This document shows positions 11,942 through 44,661 of a stretch of 47,387 nucleotides of DNA, piece by piece. The notes beneath the pieces were generated by a model. That model did not search any database. It had not been told where the DNA came from and worked only from the letters and a program-made list of their open reading frames with translations. The translations under genes and the position numbers were made by a program. Origin of the DNA: a virus (taxonomy: Duplodnaviria; Heunggongvirae; Uroviricota; Caudoviricetes); IMG/VR virus record IMGVR_UViG_2859827302_000001; one strand, given 5' to 3'. The number at the start of each line of letters is the position of its first letter. Position 1 is the stretch's first letter.

Positions 11942-12664
11942 AGTGATGAAGAAAAAATACGAACTGGTTGTTAAAGGGATAAATAATTACCCGGATAAGA
12001 TTACTGTTACTGTGGCACTGGAAATTGGTGGGTATCCGTCACTGTTGTTGCCATATGTGGCGATTAGTCTTGACCGTACTGAAGGTGCCACGCTGGAGTT
12101 TTACGAAGCGGAGGCGAAAAAGCAGGCGAAGCAGTTTTTCATGGATGTTGCTGCCGGGTTATGTGAAGGGAACGAACCGTTGCAGGAAAAGCGCCCCATC
12201 ATTTTAGAGGCGCAGGATGTGTTGATAACCTACAGAGGAAAACTACCGGGAATAATTACTTGTTCTCTGAAGATGCCGCCGTCAACACTGCGGTCAGAAA
12301 AAGAGGCGTCTTGTCTGCAGTCTGAGTACTCCATTACGGTTAAAAGTGCCGGAGAGGAAGGAAATAAACGTTATTTTATTGCGTCTGCACCTGATAAAGA
12401 TCAGGAATGGGAGTGTAACCGGCCATCCTTTGTTGTATACGGAGATGGCGGGAAAATAACCATCTCAGAAAATGGGAAATTAACACCGCCATCGCACCAG
12501 CATAGTGAGGCGCTCATTGAATTTGCCATTGATTACCTGAAGAACAATAAAAAGCAGGGGCTGATGAAGTGCATTGGTCGTTGCATGGGATATCTGCAGA
12601 TAGCTGCTGAGATTGAAGCGCTGGCCAGTGGTGCTGATAAGGATGCAATGGTAATGACTCCAAC

Positions 12665-13168
12665 TTACTGATAGTGTTTTATGTTCAGATAATGCCCGAT
12701 GACCTTGTCATGCAGCTCCACCGATTTTGAGAACGACAGTGACTTCCGTCCCAGCCTTGCCAGATGTTGTCTCAGATTCAGATTATGTCGCTCAATGCGC
12801 TGAGTGTAACGCTTGCTGATAACGTGCAGCTTTCCCTTCAGGCGTGATTCATACAGCGGCCAGCCATCCGTCATCCATACCACGACCTCAAAGGCCGACA
12901 GCAGGCTCAGAAGACGCTCCAGTGTGGTCAGAGTGCGTTCACCGAAGACGTGCGCCACAACCGTCCTCCGTATCCTGTCATACGCGTAAAACAGCCAGCG
13001 CTGATGTGATTTAGCACCGACGTAGCCCCACTGTTCGTCCATTTCAGCGCAGACAATCACATCACTGCCCGGTTGTATGCGCGAGGTTACCGACTGCGGC
13101 CTGAGTTTTTTAAGTGACGTAAAACCGTGTTGAGGCCAACGCCCATAATGCGTGCACTGGCGCGACAT
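12665..13168 (-). CDS. insB: IS1 InsB (expressed as InsAB' by -1 frameshift)
   Basis: 167-aa ORF overlapping insA. Confidence 0.85.
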
Positions 13169-13362
13169 CCGACGCCATTCATGGCCATATCAATGATTTT
13201 CTGGTGCGTACCGGGCTGAGAGGCGGTGTAAGTGAACTGTAGTTGCCATGTTTTACGGCAATGAGAGCAGAGATAGCGCTGATGTCCGGCAGTGCTTTTG
13301 CCGTTACGCACCACGCCTTCAGTAGCGGAGCAGGAAGGACATCTGATGGAAATGGAAGCCAC
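13087..13362 (-). CDS. insA: IS1 InsA
   Basis: [23 protein letters not shown]... zinc-finger/HTH protein. Confidence 0.9.
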
Positions 13363-13565
13363 GCAAGCACCTTAAAATCACCATCATACACTAAATCAGT
13401 AAGTTGGCAGCATTACCGGATGCAATTGTGCGGGAGGCTCTTCTTCGTGATTTTAATACTCCACCCTTTAAAAAAGTGCCGGCTTACTGGCTTCATCCGG
13501 GGCTGACTTATCTTAAAGTGCGTATTTAGTGGGCCAGGGACAGCGGCTGAATATTTAATATATCC

Positions 13566-15452: not shown

Positions 15453-15464
15453 GGGCGGCGACCT
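15453..15464 (+). other. cosN (GGGCGGCGACCT, lambda 12-nt cohesive-end sequence); cosB follows to ~15640
   Basis: Exact lambda cohesive-end 12-mer followed by ...CTCGCGGTTTTTCACTATTTATGAAAATTTT, matching lambda cos context. Confidence 0.7.
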
Positions 15465-15732
15465 CGCGGTTTTTCACTATTTATGAAAATTTTTCAGGGA
15501 AAATCGTGTCGGTACTTCTCGAATATAACTTTTTGTTTTTTTTAATATTGCATCCGTAAAGGTCCGACATGAAAGTGTCCGAAAATGCCTTTTTCTGGCG
15601 TTTTCATGTCGGGCCTTGTATTTGATAATGGGTTGTTTTCATGAAGGTTAATAAAAAGAGGCTTGCCGAAATTTTCAATGAACTGCCCCGGGAATCCTGG
15701 AGACTAAACTTCCTGAGAAAGAGGTAAACAGG

Positions 15733-16059
15733 ATGACTAAAAATACTCGTTTTTCCCCTGAAGTCCGTCAACGGGCAGTCCGTATGGTTCTGGAAAGTCA
15801 GGGCGAATATGACTCACAATGGGCGACAATTTGTTCCATTGCTCCAAAGATTGGCTGTACGCCGGAGACTCTGCGTGTCTGGGTTCGCCAGCATGAGCGG
15901 GATACCGGGGGCGGTGATGGAGGGCTCACCACCGCTGAACGTCAGCGTCTGAAAGAGCTGGAGCGTGAAAATCGTGAACTGCGCCGCAGTAACGATATCC
16001 TTCGCCAGGCTTCCGCTTATTTTGCGAAGGCGGAGTTCGACCGCCTCTGGAAAAAATGA
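15733..16059 (+). CDS. IS629 OrfA
   Basis: [21 protein letters not shown]... Confidence 0.9.
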
Positions 16060-16946
16060 TGCCACTGCTGGATAAGCTGCGTGAGCAGTACGGGGTCGGA
16101 CCGCTATGCAGCGAACTGCATATTGCCCCGTCAACGTATTACCACTGTCAGCAACAGCGACATCATCCGGATAAACGCAGTGCCCGTGCGCAGCGCGATG
16201 ACTGGCTGAAGAAAGAGATACAGCGCGTATACGATGAAAATCACAAGGTATACGGTGTGCGTAAAGTCTGGCGTCAGTTGTTACGGGAAGGCATCAGAGT
16301 GGCCAGATGCACTGTGGCACGTCTCATGGCGGTTATGGGACTTGCCGGTGTTCTCCGGGGTAAAAAGGTCCGTACGACCATCAGCCGGAAAGCCGTTGCC
16401 GCAGGCGACCGCGTAAACCGTCAGTTCGTGGCAGAACGACCTGACCAGCTGTGGGTGGCTGATTTTACTTACGTCAGCACATGGCAGGGCTTCGTCTATG
16501 TGGCGTTCATCATTGATGTGTTTGCCGGATACATCGTGGGGTGGCGGGTCTCATCGTCCATGGAAACGACATTCGTGCTGGATGCTCTGGAGCAGGCGTT
16601 ATGGGCCCGTCGACCGTCCGGCACGGTCCATCACAGTGATAAAGGTTCTCAGTATGTATCGCTGGCCTACACACAGCGGCTTAAGGAAGCCGGATTACTG
16701 GCATCAACAGGAAGTACAGGCGACTCGTATGACAACGCGATGGCGGAGAGCATCAATGGTCTTTACAAAGCGGAGGTAATACACCGTAAGAGCTGGAAAA
16801 ACCGTGCAGAAGTGGAACTGGCCACACTCACGTGGGTGGACTGGTATAATAATCGACGATTGCTGGAAAGGCTGGGCCATACTCCTCCGGCAGAAGCAGA
16901 AAAAGCTTATTATGCTTCCATCGGAAACGATGATCTGGCAGCCTGA
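16056..16946 (+). CDS. IS629 OrfB transposase
   Basis: 296-aa DDE ORF overlapping orfA. Confidence 0.9.
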
Positions 16947-17473
16947 GTTCACAGATAAAACACTCTCCAGGAAACCCGGGGCGGTTCACAACGTGGACCC
17001 GCGGACGATTGAACGCTGGCAGTCTCAGGGACTCCCTTGCGCCTCCAAAGGTAGTAAGGGCATTGAATCTGTATTTGATACTGCCATGGCAATTCAGTGG
17101 TATGCGCAGAGGGAAACTGATATCGAAAACGAAAAGCTCCGCAAAGAACTGGACGATTTGCGTGCGGCAGCGGAGTCAGATTTACAACCCGGCACCATTG
17201 ACTATGAACGCTACCGGCTCACAAAAGTGCAGGCAGATGCGCAGGAACTGAAAAATGCCCGTGAAGACGGAGTAGTGCTGGAAACTGAACTGTTTACCTT
17301 CATTCTGCAACGTGTGGCACAGGAGATATCGGGGATACTTGTGCGTGTGCCGTTGACATTACAGCGTAAATATCCGGACATTTCACCATCACACCTTGAT
17401 GTGGTGAAAACTGAAATCGCGAAAGCCTCCAATGTTTCAGCTAAGGCCGGTGAAAACGTGGGCGGGTGGATCG

Positions 17474-19592: not shown

Positions 19593-19826
19593 AACGAACG
19601 CCTGTCCTGATTGATGTGAACGGCGTTCCGCTTCGTGAGAGTCTCAGCTACAACGGGGGCGGTGCAGGATTTGGCGGGCAAATGGCTGAGTGGTTGCCAC
19701 CGGCGCAGAGTGCCGATGCGGCCCTGCTACCCGCGTAGACTGGCCCCCTGAATCTCCAGACAACCAGTATCACTTAAATAAGTGATAGTCTTAATACTAG
19801 TTTTTAGACTAGTCATTGGAGTACAG

Positions 19827-20192
19827 ATGATTGATGTCTTAGGGCCGGAGAAACGCAGACGGCGTACCACACAGGAAAAGATCGCAATTGTTCAGCAGAG
19901 CTTTGAACCGGGGATGACGGTCTCCCTCGTTGCCCGGCAACATGGTGTAGCAGCCAGCCAGTTATTTCTCTGGCGTAAGCAATACCAGGAAGGAAGTCTT
20001 ACTGCTGTGGCCGCCGGAGAACAGGTTGTTCCTGCCTCTGAACTTGCTGCCGCCATGAAGCAGATTAAAGAACTCCAGCGCCTGCTCGGCAAGAAAACGA
20101 TGGAAAATGAACTCCTCAAAGAAGCCGTTGAATATGGACGGGCAAAAAAGTGGATAGCGCACGCGCCCTTATTGCCCGGGGATGGGGAGTAA
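19827..20192 (+). CDS. insC: IS2 InsC
   Basis: [25 protein letters not shown]... Confidence 0.9.
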
Positions 20193-21055
20193 GCTTAGTC
20201 AGCCGTTGTCTCCGGGTGTCGCGTGCGCAGTTGCACGTCATTCTCAGACGAACCGATGACTGGATGGATGGCCGCCGCAGTCGTCACACTGATGATACGG
20301 ATGTGCTTCTCCGTATACACCATGTTATCGGAGAGCTGCCCACGTATGGTTATCGTCGGGTATGGGCGCTGCTTCGCAGACAGGCAGAACTTGATGGTAT
20401 GCCTGCGATCAATGCCAAACGTGTTTACCGGATCATGCGCCAGAATGCGCTGTTGCTTGAGCGAAAACCTGCTGTACCACCATCGAAACGGGCACATACA
20501 GGCAGAGTGGCCGTGAAAGAAAGCAATCAGCGATGGTGCTCTGACGGGTTCGAGTTCTGCTGTGATAACGGAGAGAGACTGCGTGTCACGTTCGCGCTGG
20601 ACTGCTGTGATCGTGAGGCACTGCACTGGGCGGTGACTACCGGCGGCTTCAACAGTGAAACAGTACAGGACGTCATGCTGGGAGCGGTGGAACGCCGCTT
20701 CGGCAACGATCTTCCGTCGTCTCCAGTGGAGTGGCTGACGGATAATGGTTCATGCTACCGGGCTAATGAAACACGCCAGTTCGCCCGGATGTTGGGACTT
20801 GAACCGAAGAACACGGCGGTGCGGAGTCCGGAGAGTAACGGAATAGCAGAGAGCTTCGTGAAAACGATAAAGCGTGACTACATCAGTATCATGCCCAAAC
20901 CAGACGGGTTAACGGCAGCAAAGAACCTTGCAGAGGCGTTCGAGCATTATAACGAATGGCATCCGCATAGTGCGCTGGGTTATCGCTCGCCACGGGAATA
21001 TCTGCGGCAGCGGGCTTGTAATGGGTTAAGTGATAACAGATGTCTGGAAATATAG
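20150..21055 (+). CDS. insD: IS2 InsD transposase
   Basis: 301-aa DDE ORF overlapping insC. Confidence 0.9.
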
Positions 21056-22506
21056 GGGCAAATCCACCGCGTTGCGTCTGGGGAATGCCCGGGCAGATGA
21101 TCTGGTGCGCAATAACGGAATAGCGGCTAATGCGGTGGCTCTGCATAAGGATCACATTGTCGGGCATATGTTTCTGATCAGCTACCGTCCGAACTGGCGC
21201 TGGCTGGGGATGCGGGAGACCGCAGCAAAAAGCTTTGTCGATGAGGTGGAGGCGGCCTGGTCGGAATACGCCGAAGGGATGTTTGGCGAGATCGACGTGG
21301 AAGGAAAACGCACGTTCACGGAATTTATCCGTGAAGGTGTGGGCGTTCATGCGTTTAACGGCGAAATCTTTGTGCAGCCGGTCTGGGATACGGAAACCAC
21401 GCAGTTATTCCGTACGCGTTTTAAAGCCGTGAGTCCGAAACGGGTGGACACGCCTGGACACGGTATGGGGAACCGTTTTCTGCGGGCCGGTGTGGAGGTC
21501 GATCGATATGGCCGTGCCGTCGCGTACCATATTTGTGAGGATGATTTTCCGTTCTCTGGGAGTGGACGATGGGAACGGATCCCGCGTGAACTTCCCACCG
21601 GGCGTCCGGCCATGCTGCATATTTTCGAGCCGGTGGAGGACGGGCAGACCCGTGGGGCTAATCAGTTTTACAGCGTCATGGAACGGCTGAAGATGCTCGA
21701 TTCCCTGCAGGCAACACAGCTTCAGTCGGCCATAGTGAAGGCGATGTATGCAGCGACGATTGAAAGTGAACTTGATACCGAAAAGGCCTTTGAATATATC
21801 GCCGGCGCGCCACAGGAGCAGAAGGATAATCCGCTTATTAATATTCTGGAGAAGTTCTCCAGCTGGTATGACACGAATAACGTGACACTGGGCGGTGTCA
21901 AAATTCCGCACCTTTTCCCTGGTGATGATCTGAAACTACAGACTGCGCAGGATTCAGACAATGGATTTTCTGCGCTTGAACAGGCGCTGCTGCGGTATAT
22001 CGCCGCCGGTCTTGGCGTTTCCTACGAACAGTTGTCCCGTGATTACTCGAAGGTCAGTTACTCAAGTGCCCGCGCCTCCGCCAATGAGTCGTGGCGCTAT
22101 TTTATGGGGCGGCGAAAATTTATTGCGGCCCGGCTGGCCACGCAGATGTTTTCCTGCTGGCTGGAAGAGGCACTTCTTCGGGGGATTATTCGTCCGCCAC
22201 GGGCACGTTTTGATTTTTATCAGGCGCGATCAGCCTGGTCACGGGCAGAGTGGATTGGTGCCGGAAGAATGGCCATTGACGGGCTCAAGGAAGTCCAGGA
22301 ATCAGTGATGCGCATTGAGGCCGGACTGAGCACGTATGAGAAAGAGCTGGCGCTGATGGGCGAGGATTATCAGGACATTTTCCGCCAGCAGGTCAGGGAA
22401 TCTGCTGAGCGGCAAAAAGCCGGACTCTCACGTCCGGTGTGGATAGCGCAGGCGTATCAGCAGCAGATAGCGGAGAGTCGCAGGCCGGAAGAGGAGACAA
22501 CACCAC

Positions 22507-25533: not shown

Positions 25534-25902
25534 ATGGCAACAAAAGAAGAAAATCAGAAACGTCTTCGTGAACTGGCTGGTCTGCTGGGGCGCGAGGCGG
25601 ATATGTCGGGGAGTGCTGCGGATATCGCACAGCGTGTGGCAGAGTGGGAAGAGGAGATTTGCGCCTCGGAAAATGAAATCGCAGATGTTGATGATACCGT
25701 TCATGAGCAGGCATGCAGGCACACCGGTGAGGATGACGTTGGTATTCTGGAACGTATCAGGCTTCTGAAGTGTTTTTACCTGTGCGGTGTTGACGATGAA
25801 ACAGGTGAGCCTGTTGAGCATGTTGATGCTGGCAGAGTAATTCTGATGCCCCCCTCAGTGGCAAAAGACATGGTCAGGAGCGGAATGGCCGTTTATGCGT
25901 GA
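25534..25902 (+). CDS. FI: DNA packaging protein FI
   Basis: Position and size after E; acidic protein. Confidence 0.6.
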   Translation: MATKEENQKRLRELAGLLGREADMSGSAADIAQRVAEWEEEICASENEIADVDDTVHEQACRHTGEDDVGILERIRLLKCFYLCGVDDETGEPVEHVDAGRVILMPPSVAKDMVRSGMAVYA

Positions 25903-26237
25903 TTTTGAGAATTCCTTTGATGCTGCCCTTGCCAGGGTGGACAGAACGATTGTTGAAGTGATGGGGCTCTGTGCGCAGTTCACCTCGGGGGCACAGTGTG
26001 GCAGCGAAGTTCAGGGGGTTTTTGACGATCCGGAGTGCCGGTAGCGGGGTCCGTATTGAAGGAAGCAGCCCGTCATTATTTGTGCGGACGGATACGGTTC
26101 GTGCCGTGCGGCGTGGTGACACGCTGACCATTAATGGTGAGACATTCTGGGTGGATCGTGTTTCTCCGGATGACGGGGGTAGCTGTTATCTCTGGCTCAA
26201 CCGTGGGCAACCACCCGCAGTTAACCGGCGACGATAA
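25895..26237 (+). pseudogene. FII: head-tail connector FII with a frameshift near 26030..26044
   Basis: N-terminal frame stops at TAG 26042..26044; C-terminal lambda-like part (VRIEGSSPSLFVRTD...DRVSPDDGGSC) is in another frame; removing one base restores GVFDDPEAGSGVRIEG. Confidence 0.7.
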
Positions 26238-31418: not shown

Positions 31419-31744
31419 AAACCTTTCGCTGGAAAGTGAAGCCGGATATGGAGGTGAACTCGCAGCCATCGGTGCGTGAAGTGCGTTTTGGTGACGGGTA
31501 CTCACAGCGTATGGCGGCAGGGCTGAATGCTGACCTGAAAACATACAGGGTGACGCTTTCCGTGACCCGGGAGGAGGCCCGGCATCTGGAAGCGTTCCTG
31601 GCAGAGCACGGTGGCTGGAAGGCATTTTTGTGGAAGCCACCCTATGCATACCGGCAGATAAAGGTGACCTGTGCCGGGTGGTCTGCGCGGGTCGGGATGT
31701 TGCGCGTTGAGTTCAGCGCGGAGTTTAAGCAGGTGGTGAACTGA
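31415..31744 (+). CDS. M: minor tail protein gpM
   Basis: Lambda M-like, 109 aa. Confidence 0.8.
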   Translation: MKTFRWKVKPDMEVNSQPSVREVRFGDGYSQRMAAGLNADLKTYRVTLSVTREEARHLEAFLAEHGGWKAFLWKPPYAYRQIKVTCAGWSARVGMLRVEFSAEFKQVVN

Positions 31745-32442
31745 TGCAGGATATTCACGAAGAAAGTCTGAGCGAGTCGGTTAAATCAGAGCAGTCACCG
31801 CGGGTGGTACTCTGGGAAATCGACCTGACGGTACAGGGCGGTGAGCGGTATTTTTTCTGTAATGAGCTGAATGAAAAAGGGGAGCCGGTCACCTGGCAGG
31901 GGCGTAAGTATGAGGCATACCCGATTGACGGCAGCGGCTTTGAGATGAACGGTCGGGGCAGCAGTGCCAGACCGTCGCTGACGGTGTCCAATCTGTTCGG
32001 TCTGGTCACCGGGATGGCGGAAGACCTGCAGAGTCTGGTGGGGGCCACGGTGGTCCGCCGCCGGGTGTATGCCCGTTTTCTGGATGCGGTGAATTTCGTT
32101 GCGGGCAATCCGGAGGCGGACCCGGAGCAGGAGCTGAGTGACCGCTGGGTGGTGGAGCAGATGTCGCAGCTGACAGCCATGACGGCCTCGTTTGTGCTGG
32201 CTACACCGACCGAGACGGATGGGGCGCTGTTTCCCGGTCGCATCATGCTGGCGAACACCTGTATGTGGGATTACCGGGGAGATGAATGCGGGTATAACGG
32301 TCCTGCGGTGGCGGATGAGTTCGACAACCCCACCACGGATATCCGTAAGGACAGATGCAGCAAGTGCATGCGCGGGTGTGAACTGCGCAGGAATGTCGGC
32401 AATTTTGGCGGTTTCCTTTCCATTAATAAACTTTCGCAGTAA
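31744..32442 (+). CDS. L: minor tail protein gpL
   Basis: Lambda L-like, C-terminal cysteine cluster. Confidence 0.85.
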   Translation: MQDIHEESLSESVKSEQSPRVVLWEIDLTVQGGERYFFCNELNEKGEPVTWQGRKYEAYPIDGSGFEMNGRGSSARPSLTVSNLFGLVTGMAEDLQSLVGATVVRRRVYARFLDAVNFVAGNPEADPEQELSDRWVVEQMSQLTAMTASFVLATPTETDGALFPGRIMLANTCMWDYRGDECGYNGPAVADEFDNPTTDIRKDRCSKCMRGCELRRNVGNFGGFLSINKLSQ

Positions 32443-32452
32443 ATCCCGGTTT

Positions 32453-33196
32453 ATGACACAGACTGAATCAGCGATTCTGGCGCATGCCCGGCGGTGTGCG
32501 CCTGCGGAGTCGTGCGGCTTCGTGATAAGCACGCCGGAGGGGGAGTGGTATATCCCTTGTGTGAATATTTCTGCAGAGCCGGAGGCGTATTTTCGTATCG
32601 CACCGGAAGACTGGCTGCGGGCAGAGATGCAGGGGGATATTGTGGCACTGGTCCACAGTCATCCCGGTGGGCTGCCCTGGCTGAGCGAGGCTGACCGGCG
32701 GCTGCAGATAAAAAGCGCACTGCCCTGGTGGCTGGTCTGCCGGGGGGAAATTCATAAATTCCGCTGTGTGCCACATCTGACAGGACGGCGCTTTGAGCAC
32801 GGGGTGACGGACTGTTACACGCTGTTCCGGGATGCATACCATCTGGCGGGAATTGATATGCCGGATTTTCATCGCGAGGATGACTGGTGGCGCAACGGCC
32901 AGAACCTGTACCTGGACAATATGGCGGTCACCGGCTTTTACCGGGTGCCCCTGTCCTCTGCACAGCCGGGCGATATTCTGCTGTGCTGCTTTGGTGCTTC
33001 GGTACCGAACCATGCCACCATTTACTGCGGCAACGGTGAGCTGCTTCACCATCTGCCTGAACAACTGAGTAAACGGGAGAGGTATTCCGAAAAATGGCAA
33101 CGACGAACGCATTCTGTCTGGCGTCACCGCCACTGGCACGCATCTGCCTTCACGGGGATTTACAACGATTTGGCCGCCGCCTCAGCCTGTATGTGA
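32453..33196 (+). CDS. K: tail tip assembly protein gpK (JAB/MPN + NlpC/P60-like)
   Basis: MTQTESAILAHARRCAPAESCGF...HSHPGG; ORF-track 32192 start is an upstream extension. Confidence 0.8.
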   Translation: MTQTESAILAHARRCAPAESCGFVISTPEGEWYIPCVNISAEPEAYFRIAPEDWLRAEMQGDIVALVHSHPGGLPWLSEADRRLQIKSALPWWLVCRGEIHKFRCVPHLTGRRFEHGVTDCYTLFRDAYHLAGIDMPDFHREDDWWRNGQNLYLDNMAVTGFYRVPLSSAQPGDILLCCFGASVPNHATIYCGNGELLHHLPEQLSKRERYSEKWQRRTHSVWRHRHWHASAFTGIYNDLAAASACM

Positions 33197-33774
33197 ACAC
33201 GGCAGCGGAAGCCATCCGGGCGCTGTCGTTACAGGTGCCGGGCTTTCGCCGTCAGATGAACGAAGGCTGGTACCAGATACGTATTGCCGGTTATGACACG
33301 GCACCGGAGGCGGTGTACGCCCGTCTTCACGAACAGCTGGGTGAGGGAACGGTCATCCATATTGTGCCGCGACTGGCCGGGGCCGGAAAGGGTGGACTGC
33401 AGATTGTGTTGGGGGCGGCAGCCATCGTGGGCTCTTTCTTCACTGCCGGGGCATCAATGGCGTTATGGGGTTCAGCCCTGGCAGCCGGTGGTTTTTCTGC
33501 CACCACGATGCTGTTTTCACTTGGAGCCAGCATGATTCTGGGCGGTGTGGCCCAGATGCTGGCCCCGAAGGCAAAAACACCGGATTACCGCGCAACGGAT
33601 AACGGCAGACAGAACACGTACTTTTCCTCGCTGGATAACATGATTGCCCAGGGGAACCCGATGCCGGTGCCTTACGGGGAAATGCTGGTTGGCTCCCGCC
33701 GTATATCCCAGGACATCAGCACCCGTGATGAAGGCGGGGGCGGAACGGTCGTGGTTATCGGGCGACAGGGATAA
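33094..33774 (+). CDS. I: tail tip assembly protein gpI
   Basis: MATTNAFCLASPPLARICLHGDLQRFG... lambda I-like. Confidence 0.75.
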   Translation: MATTNAFCLASPPLARICLHGDLQRFGRRLSLYVNTAAEAIRALSLQVPGFRRQMNEGWYQIRIAGYDTAPEAVYARLHEQLGEGTVIHIVPRLAGAGKGGLQIVLGAAAIVGSFFTAGASMALWGSALAAGGFSATTMLFSLGASMILGGVAQMLAPKAKTPDYRATDNGRQNTYFSSLDNMIAQGNPMPVPYGEMLVGSRRISQDISTRDEGGGGTVVVIGRQG

Positions 33775-33775
33775 A

Positions 33776-33812
33776 ACATAAAAAAATCCCGCAGTGATCG
33801 CGGAGCTGCGGG
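33776..33812 (-). terminator. terminator-like hairpin (minus-strand sense) at left edge of I-J spacer
   Basis: CCCGCAG-11nt-CTGCGGG with A-run on plus strand. Confidence 0.4.
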
Positions 33813-33986
33813 GACAGACAAATGAAGATCAATGTTAAGGAGTTGTTTTTGTTACTCGGGCAAAAAAACACTAACGCAGCGAAATTATAAGCGCCACAGT
33901 CAGTGTGTGAAAATGTGAAGATATTCAGAATTTTTATGCCATTACCGGTTTTAACCAACAGGATTATCGGTGGGCATGAAAGAAAA

Positions 33987-34019
33987 CCCCGGTATCTGCT
34001 GATACCGGGGTTTCTCTTT
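33987..34019 (+). terminator. strong rho-independent terminator in I-J spacer
   Basis: Perfect 10-bp stem CCCCGGTATC-TGCT-GATACCGGGG then TTTCTCTTT. Confidence 0.55.
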
Positions 34020-34116
34020 AGCATGGCAGAAATGTGTTTCATGCTTTTCGGGCGAAGGATATCCGACTTCTGTACGGAATGGCAAGTGGCGGTTAATTTA
34101 TTCAGGGGAAGGCTGT

Positions 34117-37100
34117 ATGGGAAAAGGTGGCGGTAAGGCACACACTCCTCGTGAGGCGAAGGATAATCTCAAATCCACGCAGATGATGAGTGTGATTGAT
34201 GCGATAGGTGAGGGACCGATAGAAGGTCCGGTGAAGGGACTGCAGAGTATTCTGGTGAACAAAACCCCACTGACGGACACGGACGGCAATCCCGTGATAC
34301 ACGGTGTGACGGCGGTCTGGCGCGCCGGGGAGCAGGAGCAGACACCACCGGAAGGCTTTGAGTCCTCCGGCTCTGAAACCGGACTGGGCGTGGAAGTGAC
34401 GAAGGCAAAACCGGTGACGCGCACCATTACGTCCGCGAACATTGACCGCCTGCGGGTTACCTTCGGGGTGTAGTCACTGGTGCAGACCACGTCAAAGGGC
34501 GACCGTAATCCTTCCTCTGTCCGGATTCTGATTCAGTTACAGCGTAATGGCCGCTGGGTGACGGAAAAGGACGTCACCATTAACGGCAAGACCACCTCAC
34601 AGTTCCTGGCCTCGGTGATTCTGGATAATCTGCCTCCCCGGCCCTTTAACATCCGGATGGTCAGGGAGACGGCGGACAGCACCACGGACCAGCTGCAGAA
34701 TAAGACGCTGTGGTCGTCATACACCGAAATCATCGATGTGAAACAGTGCTACCCGAACACGGCCATTGTGGGGCTGCAGGTGGATGCGGAGCAGTTCGGC
34801 GGCCAGCAGATGACGGTGAACTACCATATCCGCGGTCGCATCATCCAGGTGCCGTCAAACTATGACCCGGAAAAACGCACGTACAGTGGTATCTGGGACG
34901 GCAGTCTGAAACCGGCATACAGCAACAACCCGGCCTGGTGCCTGTGGGACATGCTGACTCACCCGCGCTACGGCATGGGAAAACGTCTGGGGGCGGCGGA
35001 TGTGGACAAGTGGGCGCAGTATGCCATCGGGCAGTACTGCGACCAGACGGTCCCGGATGGTTTCGGGGGGACCGAGCCGCGGATGACCTTTAATGCGTAC
35101 CTGGCACAACAGCGTAAGGCGTGGGACGTTCTCAGTGATTTCTGCTCTGCGATGCGCTGTATGCCGGTATGGAACGGTCAGACGCTGACGTTCGTTCAGG
35201 ACCGCCCGTCGGATGTGGTGTGGCCGTACACCAACAGCGATGTGGTGGTGGATGATAACGGCGTGGGATTCCGCTACAGCTTCAGTGCCCTGAAGGACCG
35301 GCACACGGCGGTGGAGGTGAATTACACCGACCCGCAGAACGGCTGGCAGACCTCCACGGAACTGGTGGAAGACCCGGAAGCCATACTGCGCTACGGACGC
35401 AACCTGCTGAAGATGGATGCGTTTGGCTGTACCTGCCGCGGTCAGGCTCACCGTGCAGGTCTGTGGGTGATAAAGACCGGACTGCTGGAAACGCAGACGG
35501 TGGACTTCACGCTCGGGTCACAGGGGCTGCGTCACACACCGGGTGACATTATTGAAATCTGTGATAACGACTATGCCGGGACTATGACCGGCGGACGTGT
35601 CCTGTCCATTGATGCTGCCACCCGCACCCTGACGCTGGACCGTGAGGTTACCCTGCCGGAGACAGGTACATCGGCGGTGAACCTGATTAACGGCAGCGGT
35701 AAGCCGGTGAGTGTGGACATCACCGCACACCCCGCGCCGGACCGGATACAGGTCAGTACCCTGCCTGATGGTGTGGAGACATACGGGGTGTGGGGACTCT
35801 CCCTGCCGTCACTGCGCCGTCGCCTGTTCCGCTGTGTCTCCGTCCGGGAAAACACGGACGGCACCTTTGCCATCACGGCGGTGCAGCACGTACCGGAAAA
35901 AGAAGCCATCGTGGATAACGGTGCCCGCTTTGAGCCGCAGTCAGGCTCCCTGAACAGCGTCATCCCACCGGCAGTGCAGCACCTGACGGTGGAGGTGAGC
36001 GCAGCTGACGGCCAGTATCTGGCACAGGCGAAATGGGACACGCCGCGGGTGGTGAAGGGGGTGCGCTTCAGTCTGCGACTGACCAGCGGAAGCGGAGAAG
36101 ACAGCCGTCTGGTGACCACCGCTATCACTGCGGATACAGAGCATCGTTTCAGTGGCCTGCCGCTCGGGGAATACACCCTGACGGTGCGGGCGATAAACAG
36201 CTATGGCCAGCAGGGTGAACCTGCCACCACCACCTTCCGGATTGCCGCACCGGCAGCACCGTCGCGGATTGAGCTGACGCCGGGCTATTTTCAGATAACC
36301 GCCACGCCGCATCTTGCCGTTTATTACCCGACGGTACAGTTTGAGTTCTGGTTCTCGGAAAAGCGGATTGCGGATATCAGGCAGGTTGAAACCGCAGCCC
36401 GCTATCTTGGCTCGGCGCTGTACTGGATAGCTGCCAGTATCAATATCAAACCGGGCCATGATTATTATTTTTATATCCGCAGTGTGAATACTGTTGGCAA
36501 ATCGGCATTCGTGGAGGCTGTCGGTCGGGCGAGCGATGATGCGGAAGGTTACCTGGATTTCTTCAAAGGAGAAATCGGGAAAACACATCTGGCCCAGGAG
36601 CTGTGGACGCAGATTGATAACGGTCAGCTTGCGCCGGACCTGGCTGAAATCAGGACGTCCATTACGAATGTCAGCAATGAAATCACGCAGACCGTCAATA
36701 AAAAACTGGAAAATCAGAGTGCGGCAATCCAGCAGATACAGAAAGTTCAGGTTGATACAAATAATAACCTGAACAGCATGTGGGCCGTGAAACTGCAGCA
36801 GATGCAGGACGGACGCCTTTATATTGCGGGTATCGATGCCGGTATTGAGAATACGCCAGCAGGAATGCAGAGTCAGGTGCTGCTGGCGGCAGATAGGATT
36901 GCGATGATTAATCCTGCGAATGGCAACACAAAGCCGATGTTTGTTGGTCAGGGCGATCAGATATTTATGAATGAAGTGTTCCTGAAATATCTGACGGCTC
37001 CCACCATTACCAGCGGCGGTAATCCTCCGGCATTTTCCCTGACACCGGACGGGCGGCTGACGGCGAAAAATGCCGATATCAGCGGTAACGTGAATGCGAA

Positions 37101-37590
37101 CTCCGGGACGCTCAACAACGTCACGATTAACGAGAACTGTCGGGTTCTGGGAAAATTGTCCGCGAACCAGATTGAAGGCGATCTCGTTAAAACAGTGGGC
37201 AAAGCTTTCCCCCGGGACTCCCGTGCACCGGAGCGGTGGCCATCAGGAACCATTACCGTCAGGGTTTATGACGATCAGCCGTTTGACCGGCAGATTGTTA
37301 TTCCGGCGGTGGCATTCAGCGGCGCTAAACATGAGAAAGAGCATACTGATATTTACTCCTCATGCCGTCTGATAGTGCGGAAAAACGGTGCTGAAATTTA
37401 TAACCGTACCGCGCTGGATAATACGCTGATTTACAGTGGTGTTATTGATATGCCTGCCGGTCACGGTCACATGACACTGGAGTTTTCGGTGTCAGCATGG
37501 CTGGTAAATAACTGGTATCCCACAGCAAGTATCAGCGATTTGCTGGTTGTGGTGATGAAGAAAGCCACTGCAGGCATCACGATTAGCTGA
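34117..37590 (+). pseudogene. J: tail tip/host specificity protein gpJ with in-frame amber codon at 34471..34473
   Basis: ORFs 34117..34473 and 34480..37590 share one frame; TAG sits where lambda J has Gln ([22 protein letters not shown]). Confidence 0.85.
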
Positions 37591-37657: not shown

Positions 37658-38257
37658 ATGCGTAAATTATGTGCTGTTATTTTGTCCGCAGTAGTCTGGC
37701 AGGTCGCCGCTGCTACGCCAGCGAGTGCAGCAGAACATCAGTCCACGCTGAGCGCGGGGTATCTCCATGCCTCGACGAACGTTCCCGGTAGTGATGATCT
37801 GAACGGGATTAACGTGAAATACCGTTATGAGTTTACGGACGCGCTGGGGCTGATTACGTCCTTCAGTTATGCCAATGCTGAGGATGAGCAAAAAACGCGC
37901 TACAGCGATACCCGCTGGCATGAAGATTCCGTGCGTAACCGCTGGTTCAGTGTGATGGCGGGGCCGTCTGTACGCGTGAATGAATGGTTCAGCGCGTATG
38001 CGATGGCGGGTGTGGCTTACAGCCGTGTGTCGACTTTCTCCGGGGATTATCTCCGCGTAACTGACAACAAGGGGAAAACGCACGACGTGCTGACCGGAAG
38101 TGATGACGGTCGCCACAGCAATACCTCTCTGGCGTGGGGGGCTGGCGTGCAGTTTAACCCGACCGAATCCGTGGCCGTTGACCTTGCTTATGAAGGTTCC
38201 GGTAGTGGCGACTGGCGAACGGATGCATTTATTGTTGGTATCGGATACCGTTTCTGA
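37658..38257 (+). CDS. lom: Lom/Ail-family outer membrane beta-barrel protein
   Basis: Signal peptide; C-terminal AYEGSGSGDWRTDAFIVGIGYRF as in lambda Lom. Confidence 0.85.
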   Translation: MRKLCAVILSAVVWQVAAATPASAAEHQSTLSAGYLHASTNVPGSDDLNGINVKYRYEFTDALGLITSFSYANAEDEQKTRYSDTRWHEDSVRNRWFSVMAGPSVRVNEWFSAYAMAGVAYSRVSTFSGDYLRVTDNKGKTHDVLTGSDDGRHSNTSLAWGAGVQFNPTESVAVDLAYEGSGSGDWRTDAFIVGIGYRF

Positions 38258-39820: not shown

Positions 39821-40606
39821 AGCAGTGCGACCAACAGCACTTCCGAGTCACTGGCGGCAACGCCAAAAGCGGTTAAGGTGGTAATGGGTGAAACGAACAA
39901 GAAAGCGCCCTTAAATAGTCCTGCACTGACCGGAACGCCAACAACACCAACTGCGCGACAGGGAACGAATAATACCCAAATCGCAAGCACGGCTTTCGTT
40001 ATGGCTGCGATTGCCGCCCTTGTAGATTCGTCACCTGACGCACTGAATACGCTGAACGAGTTAGCGGCGGCGCTGGGAAACGACCCGAATTTTGCGACCA
40101 CCATGACTAACGCGCTTGCGGGTAAGCAACCGAAAGATGCCACCCTGACGGCGCTGGCCGGGCTTACTACTGCGGCAGACAAGTTTCCGTATTTTACGGG
40201 GAATGATGTCGCCAGCCTGGCAACCCTGACAAAAGTCGGGCGGGATATTCTTGCGAAATCGACTGTTGCTGCCGTTATCGAATACCTCGGTTTACGAGAA
40301 CTCGGCACAAGCGGGGAGAAAATACCGTTACTCAGTACAGCGAATACCTGGACTAATCGACAAACATTCAGCGGTGGCCTTTCTGGTGAACTATCCGGCA
40401 ATGCTTCTACAGCTGCAAAATTAAAAACTGCCAGGAAAATAAGCAATGTGGCTTTTGATGGTTCCTCCGATATCACATTAAAAGCAAGTCATGTTGGTGC
40501 GTTTGCCTTAGGGAAAACAGGAAGCACCGTTGCGAATGATAAAGCAGTTGGGGTAATGCTGCCAACTTACTGATTTAGTGTATGATGGTGATTTTAAGGT
40601 GCTTGC

Positions 40607-40882
40607 GTGGCTTCCATTTCCATCAGATGCCCTTCCTGCTCCGCTACTGAAGGCGTGGTGCGTAACGGCAAAAGCACTGCCGGACATCAGCGCTATCTCT
40701 GCTCTCATTGCCGTAAAACATGGCAACTACAGTTCACTTACACCGCCTCTCAGCCCGGTACGCACCAGAAAATCATTGATATGGCCATGAATGGCGTCGG
40801 ATGTCGTGCCAGTGCACGCATTATGGGCGTTGGCCTCAACACGGTTTTACGTCACTTAAAAAACTCAGGCCGCAGTCGGTAA
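40607..40882 (+). CDS. insA: IS1 InsA
   Basis: Identical to the InsA of the 12650 copy. Confidence 0.9.
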
Positions 40883-41304
40883 CCTCGCGCATACAACCGG
40901 GCAGTGATGTGATTGTCTGCGCTGAAATGGACGAACAGTGGGGCTACGTCGGTGCTAAATCACGTCAGCGCTGGCTGTTTTACGCGTATGACAGGATACG
41001 GAGGACGGTTGTGGCGCACGTCTTCGGTGAACGCACTCTGGCCACACTGGAGCGTCTTCTGAGCCTGCTGTCGGCCTTTGAGGTCGTGGTATGGATGACG
41101 GATGGCTGGCCGCTGTATGAATCACGCCTGAAGGGAAAGCTGCACGTTATCAGCAAGCGTTACACTCAGCGCATTGAGCGACATAATCTGAATCTGAGAC
41201 AACATCTGGCAAGGCTGGGACGGAAGTCACTGTCGTTCTCAAAATCGGTGGAGCTGCATGACAAGGTCATCGGGCATTATCTGAACATAAAACACTATCA
41301 GTAA
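40801..41304 (+). CDS. insB: IS1 InsB
   Basis: 167-aa ORF. Confidence 0.85.
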
Positions 41305-41991
41305 GTTGGAGTCATTACCAGCAGTTGGATGGAACTGGAGTAGCGGAGCCTATAACGCAACTATTAGAGGTGCATCAACGTTAATTATTCATTTTTATAT
41401 GGGAGAAGGAAGTTGTCCTGCAGCTCAGTTTCGGATTAATTATAAAAATGGCGGTATTTTTTATCGTTCAGCCCGTGATGGTTATGGTTTTGAAGCCGAC
41501 TGGTCCGAATTTTACACCACCACCAGAAAACCTTCAGCAGGAGATGTTGGTGCACTGCCGTTATCTGGTGGTCAACTGAATGGTGCACTGGGTATCGGAA
41601 CAGCCAGTGCTCTTGGCGGTAATTCGATTGTATTGGGTGATAATGATACGGGCTTTAAACAAAATGGCGATGGTAATCTGGATGTTTATGCTAATAACGT
41701 CCATGTTATGCGCTTTGTCTCCGGAAGCATTCAAAGTAATAAAACCATAAATATTACGGGACGTGTTAATCCCTCGGATTACGGTAACTTTGATTCCCGC
41801 TATGTGAGAGATGTCAGACTTGGCACACGAGTTGTTCAGACCATGAAGAAAGGCGTGATGTATGAAAAATCAGGCCATGTAATCACGGGGCTTGGTATTA
41901 TCGGTGAAGTCGATGGTGATGATCCGGCAGTATTCAGACCAATACAAAAGTTAATTAACGGAACATGGTATAACGTATCGCAGGTATAATC

Positions 41992-42040: not shown

Positions 42041-42292
42041 TGAGGTGTACTGGCAATAGCGGACACTACCATTTGTTCTTTTTTAAGCAGCCATCTGATG
42101 ATATTTTTCCCTGAAGGCTGCCGGGGAGATATTCCCCAGACGAGAGTGACGACGCTGACGATTGTAGAAAATCTCAATGTATTCCCGTATTACTGAGATG
42201 GCTTCATCCCGGTTATTAAAACGATAGTGGCTCAGGCTCTCATTTTTCAGCGTTCCCCAGAAGCTTTCCATCGGAGCGTTGTCGTAACAGTT
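42041..42292 (-). mobile_element. IS3-family (IS600-like) right-end fragment, truncated by the IS66-family element
   Basis: Same sequence as 5894..6145; OrfB C-terminal 74 codons only. Confidence 0.7.
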
Positions 42293-42329: not shown

Positions 42330-43867
42330 TTATTCAGTCGGCAGTGCTACGCGCCAGGGGAGCAGTTCGCCGACCCGGTTTATCGGCCAGTCGGCTATGA
42401 CGTCAAGGACATAGCGGAGGTAGCTTTCTGGCTCCACTCCGTTCAGTTTGCACGTCCCGATCAGGCTGTACAGCAGCGCTCCCCGCTCTCCTCCATGATC
42501 CGAACCGAAGAACAGGTAGTTTTTGCGGCCCAGACTGACCATCCGCAACGCATTTTCAGCGATGTTATTGTCCGCCTCAGCCCAGCCATCATCTGCATAG
42601 TACGTCAGCGCCGGCCACTGGTTCAGGGCGTATGCGAACGCTTTCGCCAGTTCTGAGTGTCGCGACAGGGTTTTCATCTTTTCACGCAGCCAGCTTTCCA
42701 GGGATTTCAGCAGCGGTTTCGTTTTCAACTGACGTTCGGCAAGGCGCTGCTCCGCCGTCATTCCCCTTATCTCTGCCTCGATGGCGTACAGTTCGCCGAT
42801 CCGTTTCAGCGCTTCCTCCGTCAGGGCTGACGGGGTGCGAACGTGCACATCGTGGATTTTACGGCGGGCGTGAGCCCAACAGGCGGCTTCCGTTATCCGG
42901 CCATCCCGGTACAGCTCGTTGAACCCGGCGTATGCATCCGCCTGCAGTACACCACTGAACCCCGCAAGATGGGTCTGCGGATGGATGCCTTTTCTGTCCG
43001 GGCTGTAAGCGAACCACACCGCCGGCGCCAGCGTTGACCCGGCGTTACGGTCGTCACGAACGTAGGTCCATAACCGCCCGGTCTTCGTTTTCTTATTGCC
43101 TGGCAACAGCACCGGGACAGGCGTGTCATCGCATGGAGCTTACCGTCAGTCAGCACATAATCCTGAAGCGCTTCTTCCAGCGGTGACAGTAGCCGGCAGC
43201 ATGCATCCACCCAGCCCGACAGCAGTGAACGACTCAGCTCCACGCCCTGGCGGCCGTACATTTCAGACTGGCGGTACAGCGGGGTGTGCTCTGCATACTT
43301 TGAGATCAGCACGCGGGCCAGCAGCCCCGGTCCTGCGATACCCCGCTCGATGGGCCGTGAAGGCGCGGGGGCCTGCACGATGGCATCGCACTGAGTACAG
43401 GCATGCTTTTCACGTACAGTCCGGATAACCCGGAAGACGCTGCGCATCAACTCCAGCTGTTCGGCGGCATCCTCACCCGGATAGCTCAGTGAGCCTCCAC
43501 ATTCCGGGCAGCATGACGCTGCCGGCAGCAGCCGTTTTTCATCGCGGGGGAGTGATTCGGGGAACGGTTTGCGGGTGCGGGTTTGACGCAGCGGGCGCTG
43601 CACGGCCGGGTCGTCAACCCGACCGGTAAGGGTATCACTTTCTTTCTGAAGTGCCTTCAGGTCAGCTTCCATCTGTGCGATACGACGGGAGACTTTTTCG
43701 GAGCGGCTGCCGAAGTTCATCCGGCGCAGCTTATCCAGCTGTGCCTGCAGATGGTCTATTTCGCGTTCACGCTCGTTCAGCTTTTCCAGCAGGGCACGGT
43801 TCAGCGCCTCCTGTTCGGCAAGGAGACGTTTCAGTGCATTGATATCGTCAGGAAGTGAGCTGCTCAT
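42330..43867 (-). pseudogene. IS66 family TnpC transposase, frameshifted (two overlapping ORFs)
   Basis: N-part 42893..43867 and C-part 42330..43112 are in different frames. Confidence 0.7.
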
Positions 43868-43915
43868 ACCGGGTATATTACCAGGCTCATTCAGCGTCGA
43901 CCAGGATAAAGAGGC

Positions 43916-44263
43916 TTACAACATAGTCAGGGACGTAAGCAGTCTTTTAGGCTGCCGCCAGTCGATACCTTCAAGGAGCATCGCCAGCTGTGCCGGTGTG
44001 AGGAACACTTTGCCATCCCGGGCTGACGGCCAGGCGAAGCGGCCGCGCTCCAGCCGTTTGGTCAGCAGACACAGTCCATCGCCGGTAGACCAGAGGAGCT
44101 TTACCTGACTGCCATTACGCCCACGGAAGATAAAAACGTGACCTGACATCGGAGCGTCTTTCAGCGTCGTCTGCACCTTTGCCGCCAGGCCGTTGAAGCC
44201 ATTTCTCATATCGGTGATACCGGCAACCAGCCAAATTTTGGTCCCGGAAGGTAACGGGATCAT
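43916..44263 (-). CDS. IS66 family TnpB (orf2)
   Basis: 115-aa ORF MIPLPSGTKIWLVAGITDMR... Confidence 0.75.
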   Translation of the reverse strand: MIPLPSGTKIWLVAGITDMRNGFNGLAAKVQTTLKDAPMSGHVFIFRGRNGSQVKLLWSTGDGLCLLTKRLERGRFAWPSARDGKVFLTPAQLAMLLEGIDWRQPKRLLTSLTML

Positions 44264-44661
44264 CGCTTCAGTTCCTGTATCAGCAGAGTCAGGAGCTTTT
44301 CGCTGACATTGCCATTGAAGCGGAGCGTCCCGTGCCGGAACGTTACCTCACAGCTGATACTGAGGGTTTCCGGATCCTCTGCGAGCGATTCTGGCTGTTC
44401 GGCAGCTGCATCGAGAGTCACAGGAAGTAGCTGGGGGCTCTCTGAAGAAGGTAATAGCAGCTTTCCCTCGCGCCATTGTTGTCGCCATTTGAACAACAGA
44501 TTGGCGTTAATGCCATTTTCAAGAGCAAGTTTTGAGATGGATATCCCGGGTTCACAGGAGGCAGCAACGAGCTGCTGTTTAAATTCGGGAAGATAATTAG
44601 GGCAGCCTTTTCGCCTGCCGGGATTCACATTTTTCTGCATATCTGACACTTTGGTTCCCAC
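44260..44661 (-). CDS. IS66 family TnpA (orf1)
   Basis: 133-aa ORF, first in operon. Confidence 0.7.
   Translation of the reverse strand: MGTKVSDMQKNVNPGRRKGCPNYLPEFKQQLVAASCEPGISISKLALENGINANLLFKWRQQWREGKLLLPSSESPQLLPVTLDAAAEQPESLAEDPETLSISCEVTFRHGTLRFNGNVSEKLLTLLIQELKR

What the first reader, a model, noticed from the sequence alone, without database searches (positions are those of the whole stretch)
34117..37590. In-frame amber codon at codon 119 of tail tip gene J
J is a single frame across 3.4 kb except for a TAG at 34471..34473 where lambda J has Gln (CAG). A single C-to-T change in an otherwise intact 1150-codon gene indicates very recent inactivation, and the gene could be read through in an amber-suppressor background.
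Basis: partly seen in the sequence, partly recalled or inferred. Interest (0 to 1): 0.45.

Follow-up and report, generated by a model that had tools for sequence, protein, structure and literature searches.

The report
Nonsense-killed tail gene in dead prophage
A real stop-codon mutation truncates the tail-tip gene J of a Shigella prophage that insertion sequences and deletions had already wrecked, so it is ordinary gene decay; the one notable point is that the same mutation was copied into a second prophage in the same genome.

Summary
TAG at 34471-34473 is codon 119 of a lambda-type J gene (34117-37590) and is its only internal stop. Lambda and the closest relatives have CAG (Gln) there. All 118 full-length homologues examined have Gln, and none of 5,426 complete E. 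coli genomes carries the TAG allele.

The window is from Shigella dysenteriae CP026828.1, a prophage inserted in mlrA/yehV. The T is not a sequencing error: the exact 118-aa truncated product occurs on contigs from at least 32 independent sequencing runs. Sister strains carry the same prophage at 99.9% identity with CAG, so the mutation is young.

Suppressor read-through has no practical consequence, because the prophage is already dead:
- integrase, nu1, portal and tail-fibre genes are split by insertion sequences;
- FII is frameshifted;
- the immunity and replication region is missing.

J also carries a private L301Q change at an otherwise invariant residue.

The same TAG and L301Q sit in a second, different prophage 360 kb away, inside a 3,827-bp tract identical between the two. 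This indicates gene conversion. A sister lineage shows the same behaviour with a different lesion, a 1-bp deletion in L. This is ordinary pseudogene decay and of low interest.

The parts
34117..34473 (+). 5' fragment of tail-tip gene J: 118 sense codons ending in the amber codon
   Evidence: ORF list and translation. Weak Pfam FNIII-A_GpJ hit covering only profile positions 3-35 of 126. Residues align 1:1 with lambda gpJ in PDB 8IYK.
34471..34473 (+). Amber codon TAG replacing CAG (Gln119), a C-to-T transition at 34471
   Evidence: Sequence. CAG in lambda, in NZ_CP062871.1 and in sister Shigella strains. Gln in 118 of 118 homologues. No exact match among 5,426 E. coli genomes.
34474..37590 (+). 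Remainder of J (codons 120-1157 plus stop), still open. ORF callers restart it at GTG 34480 as a 1036-aa product.
   Evidence: Pfam domains FNIII-A (C-terminal two thirds), Phage-tail_3, Ig_J, Ig_J_second, Phage_Tail_Tip and Ig_GpJ_C are all present.
35017..35019 (+). Codon 301 CAG (Gln): a private missense change from CTG (Leu), by T-to-A at 35018
   Evidence: Leu in 118 of 118 homologues and in lambda gpJ.
32329..36155 (+). 3,827-bp tract (3' end of L, K, I, J codons 1-680) that is 100% identical to a second prophage of the same chromosome (CP026828.1, about 2.80 Mb). It carries the amber codon and L301Q.
   Evidence: The flanks diverge, with about 30 differences in the 600 bp to the left and about 25-30% divergence to the right.
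31744..33774 (+). Tail-tip genes L (31744-32442), K (32453-33196) and I (33094-33774), all intact in this window
   Evidence: Pfam labels for the called genes; for I.
37658..38257 (+). lom-like outer-membrane protein gene downstream of J
   Evidence: Pfam Ail_Lom; synteny with VT1-Sakai and E. coli prophages.
1258..2464 (-). IS3-family element splitting the prophage integrase gene (C-terminal part 657-1337, N-terminal part 2416-3195)
   Evidence: Pfam. An inverted second copy lies at 6794-8000.
15679..16988 (+). 1,310-bp IS3-family element interrupting terminase small-subunit gene nu1 at about codon 12
   Evidence: Alignment to phage 21 OL657228.1; Pfam.
19737..21066 (+). 1,330-bp IS3-family (IS2-like) element interrupting the portal gene at about codon 49
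   Evidence: Alignment to phage 21; Pfam.
25895..26044 (+). Truncated head-tail joining gene FII (49 aa instead of 117), caused by an 11-bp deletion after 26035
   Evidence: Alignment with CP026834.1; gene lists.
40552..41320 (-). IS1 inserted in the side tail fibre gene, which is 934 aa when intact in sister strains

Best explanation
This is a plain nonsense pseudogene. A spontaneous C-to-T transition changed Gln119 (CAG) of the lambda-type tip attachment protein J to UAG. Translation therefore stops after Val118, inside the first Pfam-defined domain (FNIII-A, residues 86-207). The hub, fibre and receptor-binding domains are not made.

The mutation arose in a Shigella dysenteriae lineage, in a prophage inserted in mlrA/yehV that IS insertions and deletions had already made non-viable. 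It was therefore selectively neutral. It was then copied by homologous recombination (gene conversion) between the two co-resident lambdoid prophage remnants, so both J genes in this chromosome now carry the same TAG. The allele became fixed in the lineage.

Shown by tool results: the mutation, its uniqueness, its presence in both copies, and the other lesions. Inferred: neutrality, gene conversion as the copying mechanism, and loss of J function.
For: - **Mutation and reference state:** TAG is at codon 119 and is the sole internal stop. The codon is CAG in lambda, in the closest E. coli J and in sister Shigella strains. Gln is present in 118 of 118 full-length homologues, and no exact match to the 71-mer exists in 5,426 E. 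coli genomes.
- **Source:** window 24117-44473 is identical to CP026828.1 2437543-2457899. That assembly is labelled S. dysenteriae.
- **The base is real:** the exact truncated product is found in at least 32 run assemblies.
- **Dead prophage:** int is split by an IS. Between xis and the methylase/tRNA cluster lie only accessory genes and IS copies. nu1 and portal are IS-interrupted relative to phage 21. FII carries an 11-bp deletion. IS1 sits in the tail fibre gene.
- **Copying between prophages:** a 3,827-bp run (32329-36155) is 100% identical to a second prophage with different flanks in the same chromosome.
- **Lineage-private alleles are shared by both copies within each genome:** ATA30, TAG119, CAG301 and TAC426 here; ATT30, CAG119, CTG301 and GAC426 in the sister strains.
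- **Independent parallel case:** the sister lineage carries a 1-bp deletion in L in both of its prophages, inside a 4,487-bp identical run with different boundaries.
- **No local suppressor:** no tRNA with a CUA anticodon lies in the window.
Against: - The rest of J is still open, and a GTG lies two codons after the stop (34480). Low-level reinitiation or read-through cannot be excluded from sequence alone.
- The host's tRNA-Gln genes were not inspected.
- That both copies in CP026828.1 carry TAG rests on one finished assembly. Short-read contigs cannot separate the copies, so homogenisation of the two repeats during assembly polishing is not formally excluded. However, the sister genome shows the same kind of identical tract with different boundaries.
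Confidence: 0.9

Rival explanations
1. The T is a sequencing or assembly error and the gene is really intact.
For: It is a single-base difference from all relatives.
Against: The exact 118-aa truncated product is encoded on contigs assembled independently from at least 32 sequencing runs with different accession prefixes, and in the finished genome. Five of the six representative contigs match the window exactly across the site. The sixth differs only at two bases near its end.
Confidence: 0.02
2. The gene is functionally split or conditionally expressed. Either the ribosome reinitiates at GTG 34480 and the two fragments assemble, or a host amber suppressor reads through to give full-length J, as with classical lambda J amber mutants.
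For: GTG lies 6 nt after the stop, with a G-rich stretch (GGGG, 34463-34466) upstream. The downstream 1,036 codons are open. A supE suppressor would restore the native Gln.
Against: - The break falls inside one Pfam domain (FNIII-A: profile 3-35 on one side, 40-125 on the other).
- None of 118 homologues is split here.
- The G-rich stretch lies 13 nt from the GTG, which is far for a Shine-Dalgarno site (sequence).
- The prophage lacks functional int, nu1, portal, FII and tail fibre genes and its regulatory region, so there is no particle for J to join.
- No suppressor tRNA lies in the window.
- From my own knowledge, UAG followed by U is an efficient termination context.
Confidence: 0.04
3. 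Loss of J was selected rather than neutral. For example, silencing a costly or harmful tail protein, or preventing defective prophages from supplying tail tips to other phages. This would explain fixation in both copies.
For: The null allele is present in both J copies and in many isolates. The sister lineage independently lost L in both copies.
Against: - Gene conversion combined with drift in a clonal pathogen explains the same pattern.
- Synonymous (I30) and missense (L301Q, and Y426D in the sisters) changes were homogenised along with the null alleles. Copying is therefore indiscriminate.
- Late genes of this remnant have no Q antiterminator or intact regulatory region to drive expression.
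Confidence: 0.04

Closest known systems
Bacteriophage lambda tip attachment protein gpJ (PDB 8IYK/8XCG; Pfam PF24801, PF13550, PF24421, PF24489, PF09327, PF12421)
   Same: Residues 1-834 align essentially 1:1 with lambda gpJ (1,491 bits). The domain set and the gene order M-L-K-I-J-lom-tail fibre are the same. Gln119 and Leu301 are conserved in lambda.
   Different: This copy has UAG at codon 119 and Gln at 301. It has 1,157 codons against 1,132, and the fibre and receptor-binding part is more diverged (313 bits over residues 865-1156).
Classical lambda J amber (sus) conditional-lethal mutants (my own knowledge of lambda genetics)
   Same: An amber codon in J that a Gln-inserting suppressor would correct to the wild-type residue.
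   Different: Those are laboratory mutants of a viable phage maintained on suppressor hosts. This is a natural allele in a wild Shigella lineage, inside a prophage that cannot excise, replicate or package.
Sp15 / VT1-Sakai, the prophage at yehV (mlrA) of E. coli O157:H7 Sakai, whose J is annotated as two CDSs 'truncated by a mutation' (AP000400.1). It is described as having multiple morphogenetic defects in PMC2669165.
   Same: Same integration gene, a 96% identical J, and J disrupted by a point lesion in a multiply defective lambdoid prophage.
   Different: The lesion is independent and at a different site. The break is near codon 390 and the locus is 1 nt shorter, which indicates a frameshift rather than an amber codon.
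Recombination among co-resident lambdoid prophages (the 'defective prophage pool', PMC2669165)
   Same: Highly similar segments shared by prophages in one cell recombine. Here a 3.8-kb tract is identical between two prophages and lineage-private SNPs are shared by both.
   Different: That work stresses rescue and the creation of new viable phages. Here the exchange spreads null alleles between two remnants.

Membership tests
Lambda-type tail tip protein J (TipJ/gpJ) | Full set of gpJ domains in the canonical order | tested here: met
   FNIII-A_GpJ, Phage-tail_3, Ig_J, Ig_J_second, Phage_Tail_Tip and Ig_GpJ_C all score above their curated cut-offs across the read-through protein.
Lambda-type tail tip protein J (TipJ/gpJ) | Sequence homology to the structurally solved lambda gpJ | tested here: met
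   phmmer E = 0 (1,800 bits) to 8iyk_J, collinear from residue 1.
Lambda-type tail tip protein J (TipJ/gpJ) | Position in the tail module (H-M-L-K-I-J-lom-stf) | tested here: met
   Called genes and Pfam labels around the gene; annotated relatives.
Nonsense pseudogene | In-frame stop at a position that is a sense codon in orthologues | tested here: met
   Gln in 118 of 118 homologues. CAG in lambda, E. coli and sister Shigella strains.
Nonsense pseudogene | The stop is a real base and not an error | tested here: met
   Independent assemblies from at least 32 runs encode the identical truncated product.
Nonsense pseudogene | No full-length product is made | not testable with these tools
   This needs protein or ribosome-profiling data. 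The sequence shows only a weak restart context at GTG 34480.
Programmed stop-codon read-through or recoding | The stop codon is conserved among homologues | tested here: not met
   No homologue among 118, and no E. coli genome among 5,426, has the stop.
Suppressor-dependent (amber conditional) phage gene | A cognate suppressor tRNA (CUA anticodon) is available | tested here: inconclusive
   The window's three tRNAs are Met-CAT, Arg-TCG and Arg-TCT. The rest of the host genome could not be read.
Suppressor-dependent (amber conditional) phage gene | An otherwise viable phage, so that suppression restores growth | tested here: not met
   int, nu1, portal, FII and the tail fibre gene are disrupted, and no immunity, replication or Q genes were found.
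Gene conversion / concerted evolution of paralogous prophage segments | An identical tract flanked by diverged homologous sequence in the same genome | tested here: met
   3,827 bp are identical (32329-36155). The flanks differ by about 5% on the left and about 25-30% on the right.
Gene conversion / concerted evolution of paralogous prophage segments | Lineage-specific substitutions are shared by both paralogues within a genome but differ between genomes | tested here: met
   Codons 30, 119, 301 and 426 are the same in both copies within each genome and differ between this genome and the sister strains. The 1-bp deletion in L is present in both copies of the sister genome.

The most novel reading that the evidence does not exclude
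Gene conversion between co-resident defective lambdoid prophages spreads inactivating mutations from one remnant to another, so their tail modules decay together rather than backing each other up. Two independent instances appear in closely related Shigella dysenteriae genomes. The J amber codon (with L301Q) is in both prophages of CP026828.1. A 1-bp deletion in L is in both prophages of GCA_002968235.1. The tract boundaries differ between the two genomes (32329-36155 against about 31729-36215).
Probability: 0.7. Interest if true: 0.3.

Novelty: already known. Interest (0 to 1): 0.1.

Why it matters
It matters little. It is one more pseudogene in a Shigella prophage remnant, consistent with the well-known IS-driven genome decay of Shigella. 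There are two minor practical points. The TAG is a clean lineage marker, absent from 5,426 complete E. coli genomes. And the pair of shared null alleles is a tidy small example of recombination between resident prophages propagating damage as well as repairing it. That second point bears on how long a 'defective prophage pool' can keep supplying working tail genes.

Tried and rejected
- **Exact allele in complete E. coli genomes.** A 71-mer search found none.
- **Exact allele in GTDB species representatives.** A 32-mer scan found none.
- **Laboratory amber mutant of a known phage.** No phage record matches the J region beyond 98.1%, and no record covers the left 24 kb. The window turned out to be a natural Shigella chromosome. 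Rejected.
- **Phage-encoded suppressor tRNA.** The window's tRNA cluster contains no CUA anticodon. Rejected.
- **Many private substitutions in J as a sign of long relaxed selection.** Most differences from the E. coli relative are shared with other S. dysenteriae J alleles. Only Q119* and L301Q are private at the protein level.
- **Host supE status.** Not pursued. The tools reach CP026828.1 only through exact-protein look-ups, so the glnV/glnX region could not be fetched.
- **Structure prediction and fold search.** Judged unnecessary, because the protein aligns 1:1 with solved lambda gpJ.

Full report
**1. The observation**

The sequence at 34471-34473 is TAG, in frame with the ATG at 34117 (codon 119). 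Translating 34117-37590 gives 1,157 sense positions with exactly one internal stop, plus the terminal stop. The ORF list shows the two halves as 34117..34473 (118 aa) and 34480..37590 (1036 aa, restarted by the tool at a GTG two codons after the stop). The gene has 1,157 codons rather than 1,150.

**2. What the gene is**

The read-through protein carries the full gpJ domain series: FNIII-A_GpJ, Phage-tail_3, Ig_J, Ig_J_second, Phage_Tail_Tip and Ig_GpJ_C. It aligns collinearly from residue 1 with lambda gpJ in PDB 8IYK at 1,800 bits. It sits in the usual order H-M-L-K-I-J-lom-tail fibre. Lambda has Gln at residue 119, encoded by CAG. The stop falls inside the FNIII-A domain. The 118-aa fragment matches only profile positions 3-35 of 126, and the downstream piece matches positions 40-125.

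**3. Is the stop unusual among relatives?**

- The closest J in 5,426 complete E. coli genomes (NZ_CP062871.1, 98.6% identical, no gaps) has CAG.
- A 71-mer centred on the stop has no exact match in that collection, while 545 records match at 95-99% identity, about 1-3 mismatches.
- Among 118 full-length (1,157 aa) homologues from the protein search, all have Gln119.
- No GTDB species representative contains the 32-mer with TAG.

The stop is therefore a derived, private allele and not a conserved recoding site.

**4. Where the window comes from and whether the base is real**

An exact look-up of the 118-aa product found it in NCBI assembly GCA_002950015.1 (CP026828.1). It also found six groups of short contigs assembled from independent sequencing runs, covering at least 32 samples. 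Window 24117-44473 is identical to CP026828.1 2437543-2457899. The assembly is labelled Shigella dysenteriae and groups with S. boydii by ANI. Five of the six representative short contigs match the window exactly across the stop. The sixth differs only at two bases near its end. A sequencing error is excluded.

**5. How recent it is**

Sister S. dysenteriae assemblies (GCA_002968215.1, GCA_002968235.1, and CP026834.1 of GCA_002950095.1) carry the same prophage at about 99.7-99.9% identity with an intact J. Against the first two, J differs at only six positions. These include C/T at 34471 (the amber codon), T/A at 35018 (L301Q in the window) and a sister-private Y426D. Leu301 is invariant in 118 of 118 homologues and in lambda.

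The window's J therefore has two private protein-level changes, not one. The inactivation post-dates the split of very close strains. It is nonetheless old enough to be fixed in many sequenced isolates.

**6. State of the surrounding prophage**

The window starts in host gene mlrA (yehV). The prophage is a wreck:

| Gene or region | Lesion |
|---|---|
| Integrase | Split by an IS3-family element at 1258-2464 |
| Region between xis and the methylase/tRNA cluster | Only accessory genes and IS copies; no repressor, replication or Q genes found |
| Between the holin-adjacent gene and the lysozyme gene | IS1 at 12649-13417 |
| nu1 | Interrupted at about codon 12 by a 1,310-bp IS (15679-16988), relative to phage 21 |
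| Portal | Interrupted at about codon 49 by a 1,330-bp IS (19737-21066) |
| FII | 11-bp deletion after 26035, giving 49 aa instead of 117 |
| Side tail fibre gene | IS1 at 40552-41320 |
| IS66 element | Transposase gene split |

Selection for J function must already have lapsed, and suppressor read-through could not restore a phage. The three tRNAs in the window (Met-CAT, Arg-TCG, Arg-TCT) are not suppressors.

**7. The twist: two prophages, one mutation**

CP026828.1 encodes the same 118 + 1036 aa split J a second time, about 360 kb away. That copy is in a different prophage remnant, with an HK97-type tape measure gene interrupted by IS66 and different tail fibre genes and flanks.

The two loci are 100% identical for 3,827 bp (window 32329-36155: the 3' end of L, K, I and J codons 1-680). 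On either side they diverge. Both copies carry ATA30, TAG119, CAG301 and TAC426. In the sister strains both copies carry ATT30, CAG119, CTG301 and GAC426. Substitutions private to a lineage but shared by both paralogues within a genome are the signature of gene conversion continuing after the lineages split.

The sister lineage provides an independent second case. A 1-bp deletion in L (window position 31939) is present in both of its prophages, inside a 4,487-bp identical run (about 31729-36215) with different boundaries. There the second prophage has acquired mlrA-prophage-type L sequence, which the window genome's second prophage lacks. A third strain (CP026834.1) has a patch at 36156-36273 in its mlrA-prophage J. 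At the protein level (FRINAPAKPATIELTPGY) this patch matches the second prophage's J.

**8. Mechanism**

- **Shown:** a C-to-T transition creates UAG at codon 119.
- **Inferred from established lambda biology:** release factor terminates after Val118, no hub, fibre or receptor-binding domains are made, and tail-tip assembly, which starts with J, cannot begin.
- **Inferred from the shared private SNPs:** the allele moved between the two remnants by homologous recombination, then drifted to fixation.
- **Cannot be excluded from sequence:** rare reinitiation at GTG 34480. A G-rich stretch lies 13 nt upstream. This would yield two pieces of a single domain and has no plausible function here.

**9. 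Comparison with what is known**

This is a member of the lambda gpJ family carrying an ordinary nonsense lesion. It resembles laboratory lambda J amber mutants only formally.

The closest natural parallel is Sp15/VT1-Sakai, at the same yehV site in E. coli O157. Its 96% identical J is independently broken at another position. Its defects, and recombination among resident prophages, are described in PMC2669165.

**10. Verdict**

The finding is ordinary and already of a known kind, with low interest. The only mildly noteworthy element is the concerted spread of null alleles between two prophage remnants.

Noticed in passing
outside the window: CP026828.1 2797665-2818021 (L004/L019); J at L004 10001-13474: A second lambdoid prophage remnant in the same chromosome carries the identical TAG119 and L301Q in its own J. 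Its J C-terminal part differs from the window's J at 100 residues, all between 710 and 1155.
   Followed up: yes
L012, L016, L017 (sister S. dysenteriae assemblies); corresponds to window position 31939: A 1-bp deletion splitting tail gene L (67 + 165 aa) is present in both prophages of the sister lineage, inside a 4,487-bp identical run. This is an independent example of a null allele shared by two prophages.
   Followed up: yes
window 15679-16988 and 19737-21066: IS3-family elements interrupt nu1 (about codon 12) and the portal gene (about codon 49) relative to phage 21. The phage-21-type cos region upstream (15453-15678) is 100% identical to phage 21.
   Followed up: yes
window 26035/26036: An 11-bp deletion frameshifts the head-tail joining gene FII (49 aa against 117 aa in CP026834.1).
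   Followed up: yes
window 8927-11575: A tRNA cluster (Met-CAT, Arg-TCG, Arg-TCT) of the kind found upstream of stx in Shiga-toxin phages. Here it is followed by DUF1737 and a 542-aa sialate O-acetylesterase-like gene, with no toxin genes. A DNA methylase gene abuts an IS copy directly upstream.
   Followed up: partly
window 1258-2464 and 6794-8000: Two 99.9% identical inverted copies of one IS3-family element. One splits the integrase gene. The other borders the region where the immunity and replication genes are missing, which suggests an IS-mediated deletion.
   Followed up: partly
window 5894-6146 and 42041-42292: A 253-bp direct repeat (99.6% identical). One copy is next to a partial IS3-family transposase and the other is next to the IS66 element. 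Its origin was not resolved.
   Followed up: no
window 42330-44661: An IS66-family element whose transposase (tnpC) is split into two ORFs (143/260 aa and 324 aa), whereas sister strains have 494-512 aa. This is another strain-specific lesion.
   Followed up: partly
L013 (CP026834.1), corresponding to window 36156-36273: In a third strain the mlrA-prophage J carries a short patch that at the protein level matches the second prophage's J. It starts exactly where the identical tract ends in the window genome, suggesting a recombination breakpoint that has been used more than once.
   Followed up: partly
L001 (AP000400.1, VT1-Sakai) 3000-6472: The yehV-integrated Stx1 prophage of E. coli O157 Sakai has a 96% identical J that is independently broken near codon 390. 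The locus is 1 nt shorter, which indicates a frameshift.
   Followed up: partly
protein P0001: The top-scoring hit is a 1,882-aa J-like protein attributed to Bacillus thuringiensis Sbt003 on a 13.8-kb contig. It is probably contamination or a fused gene call in that assembly.
   Followed up: no
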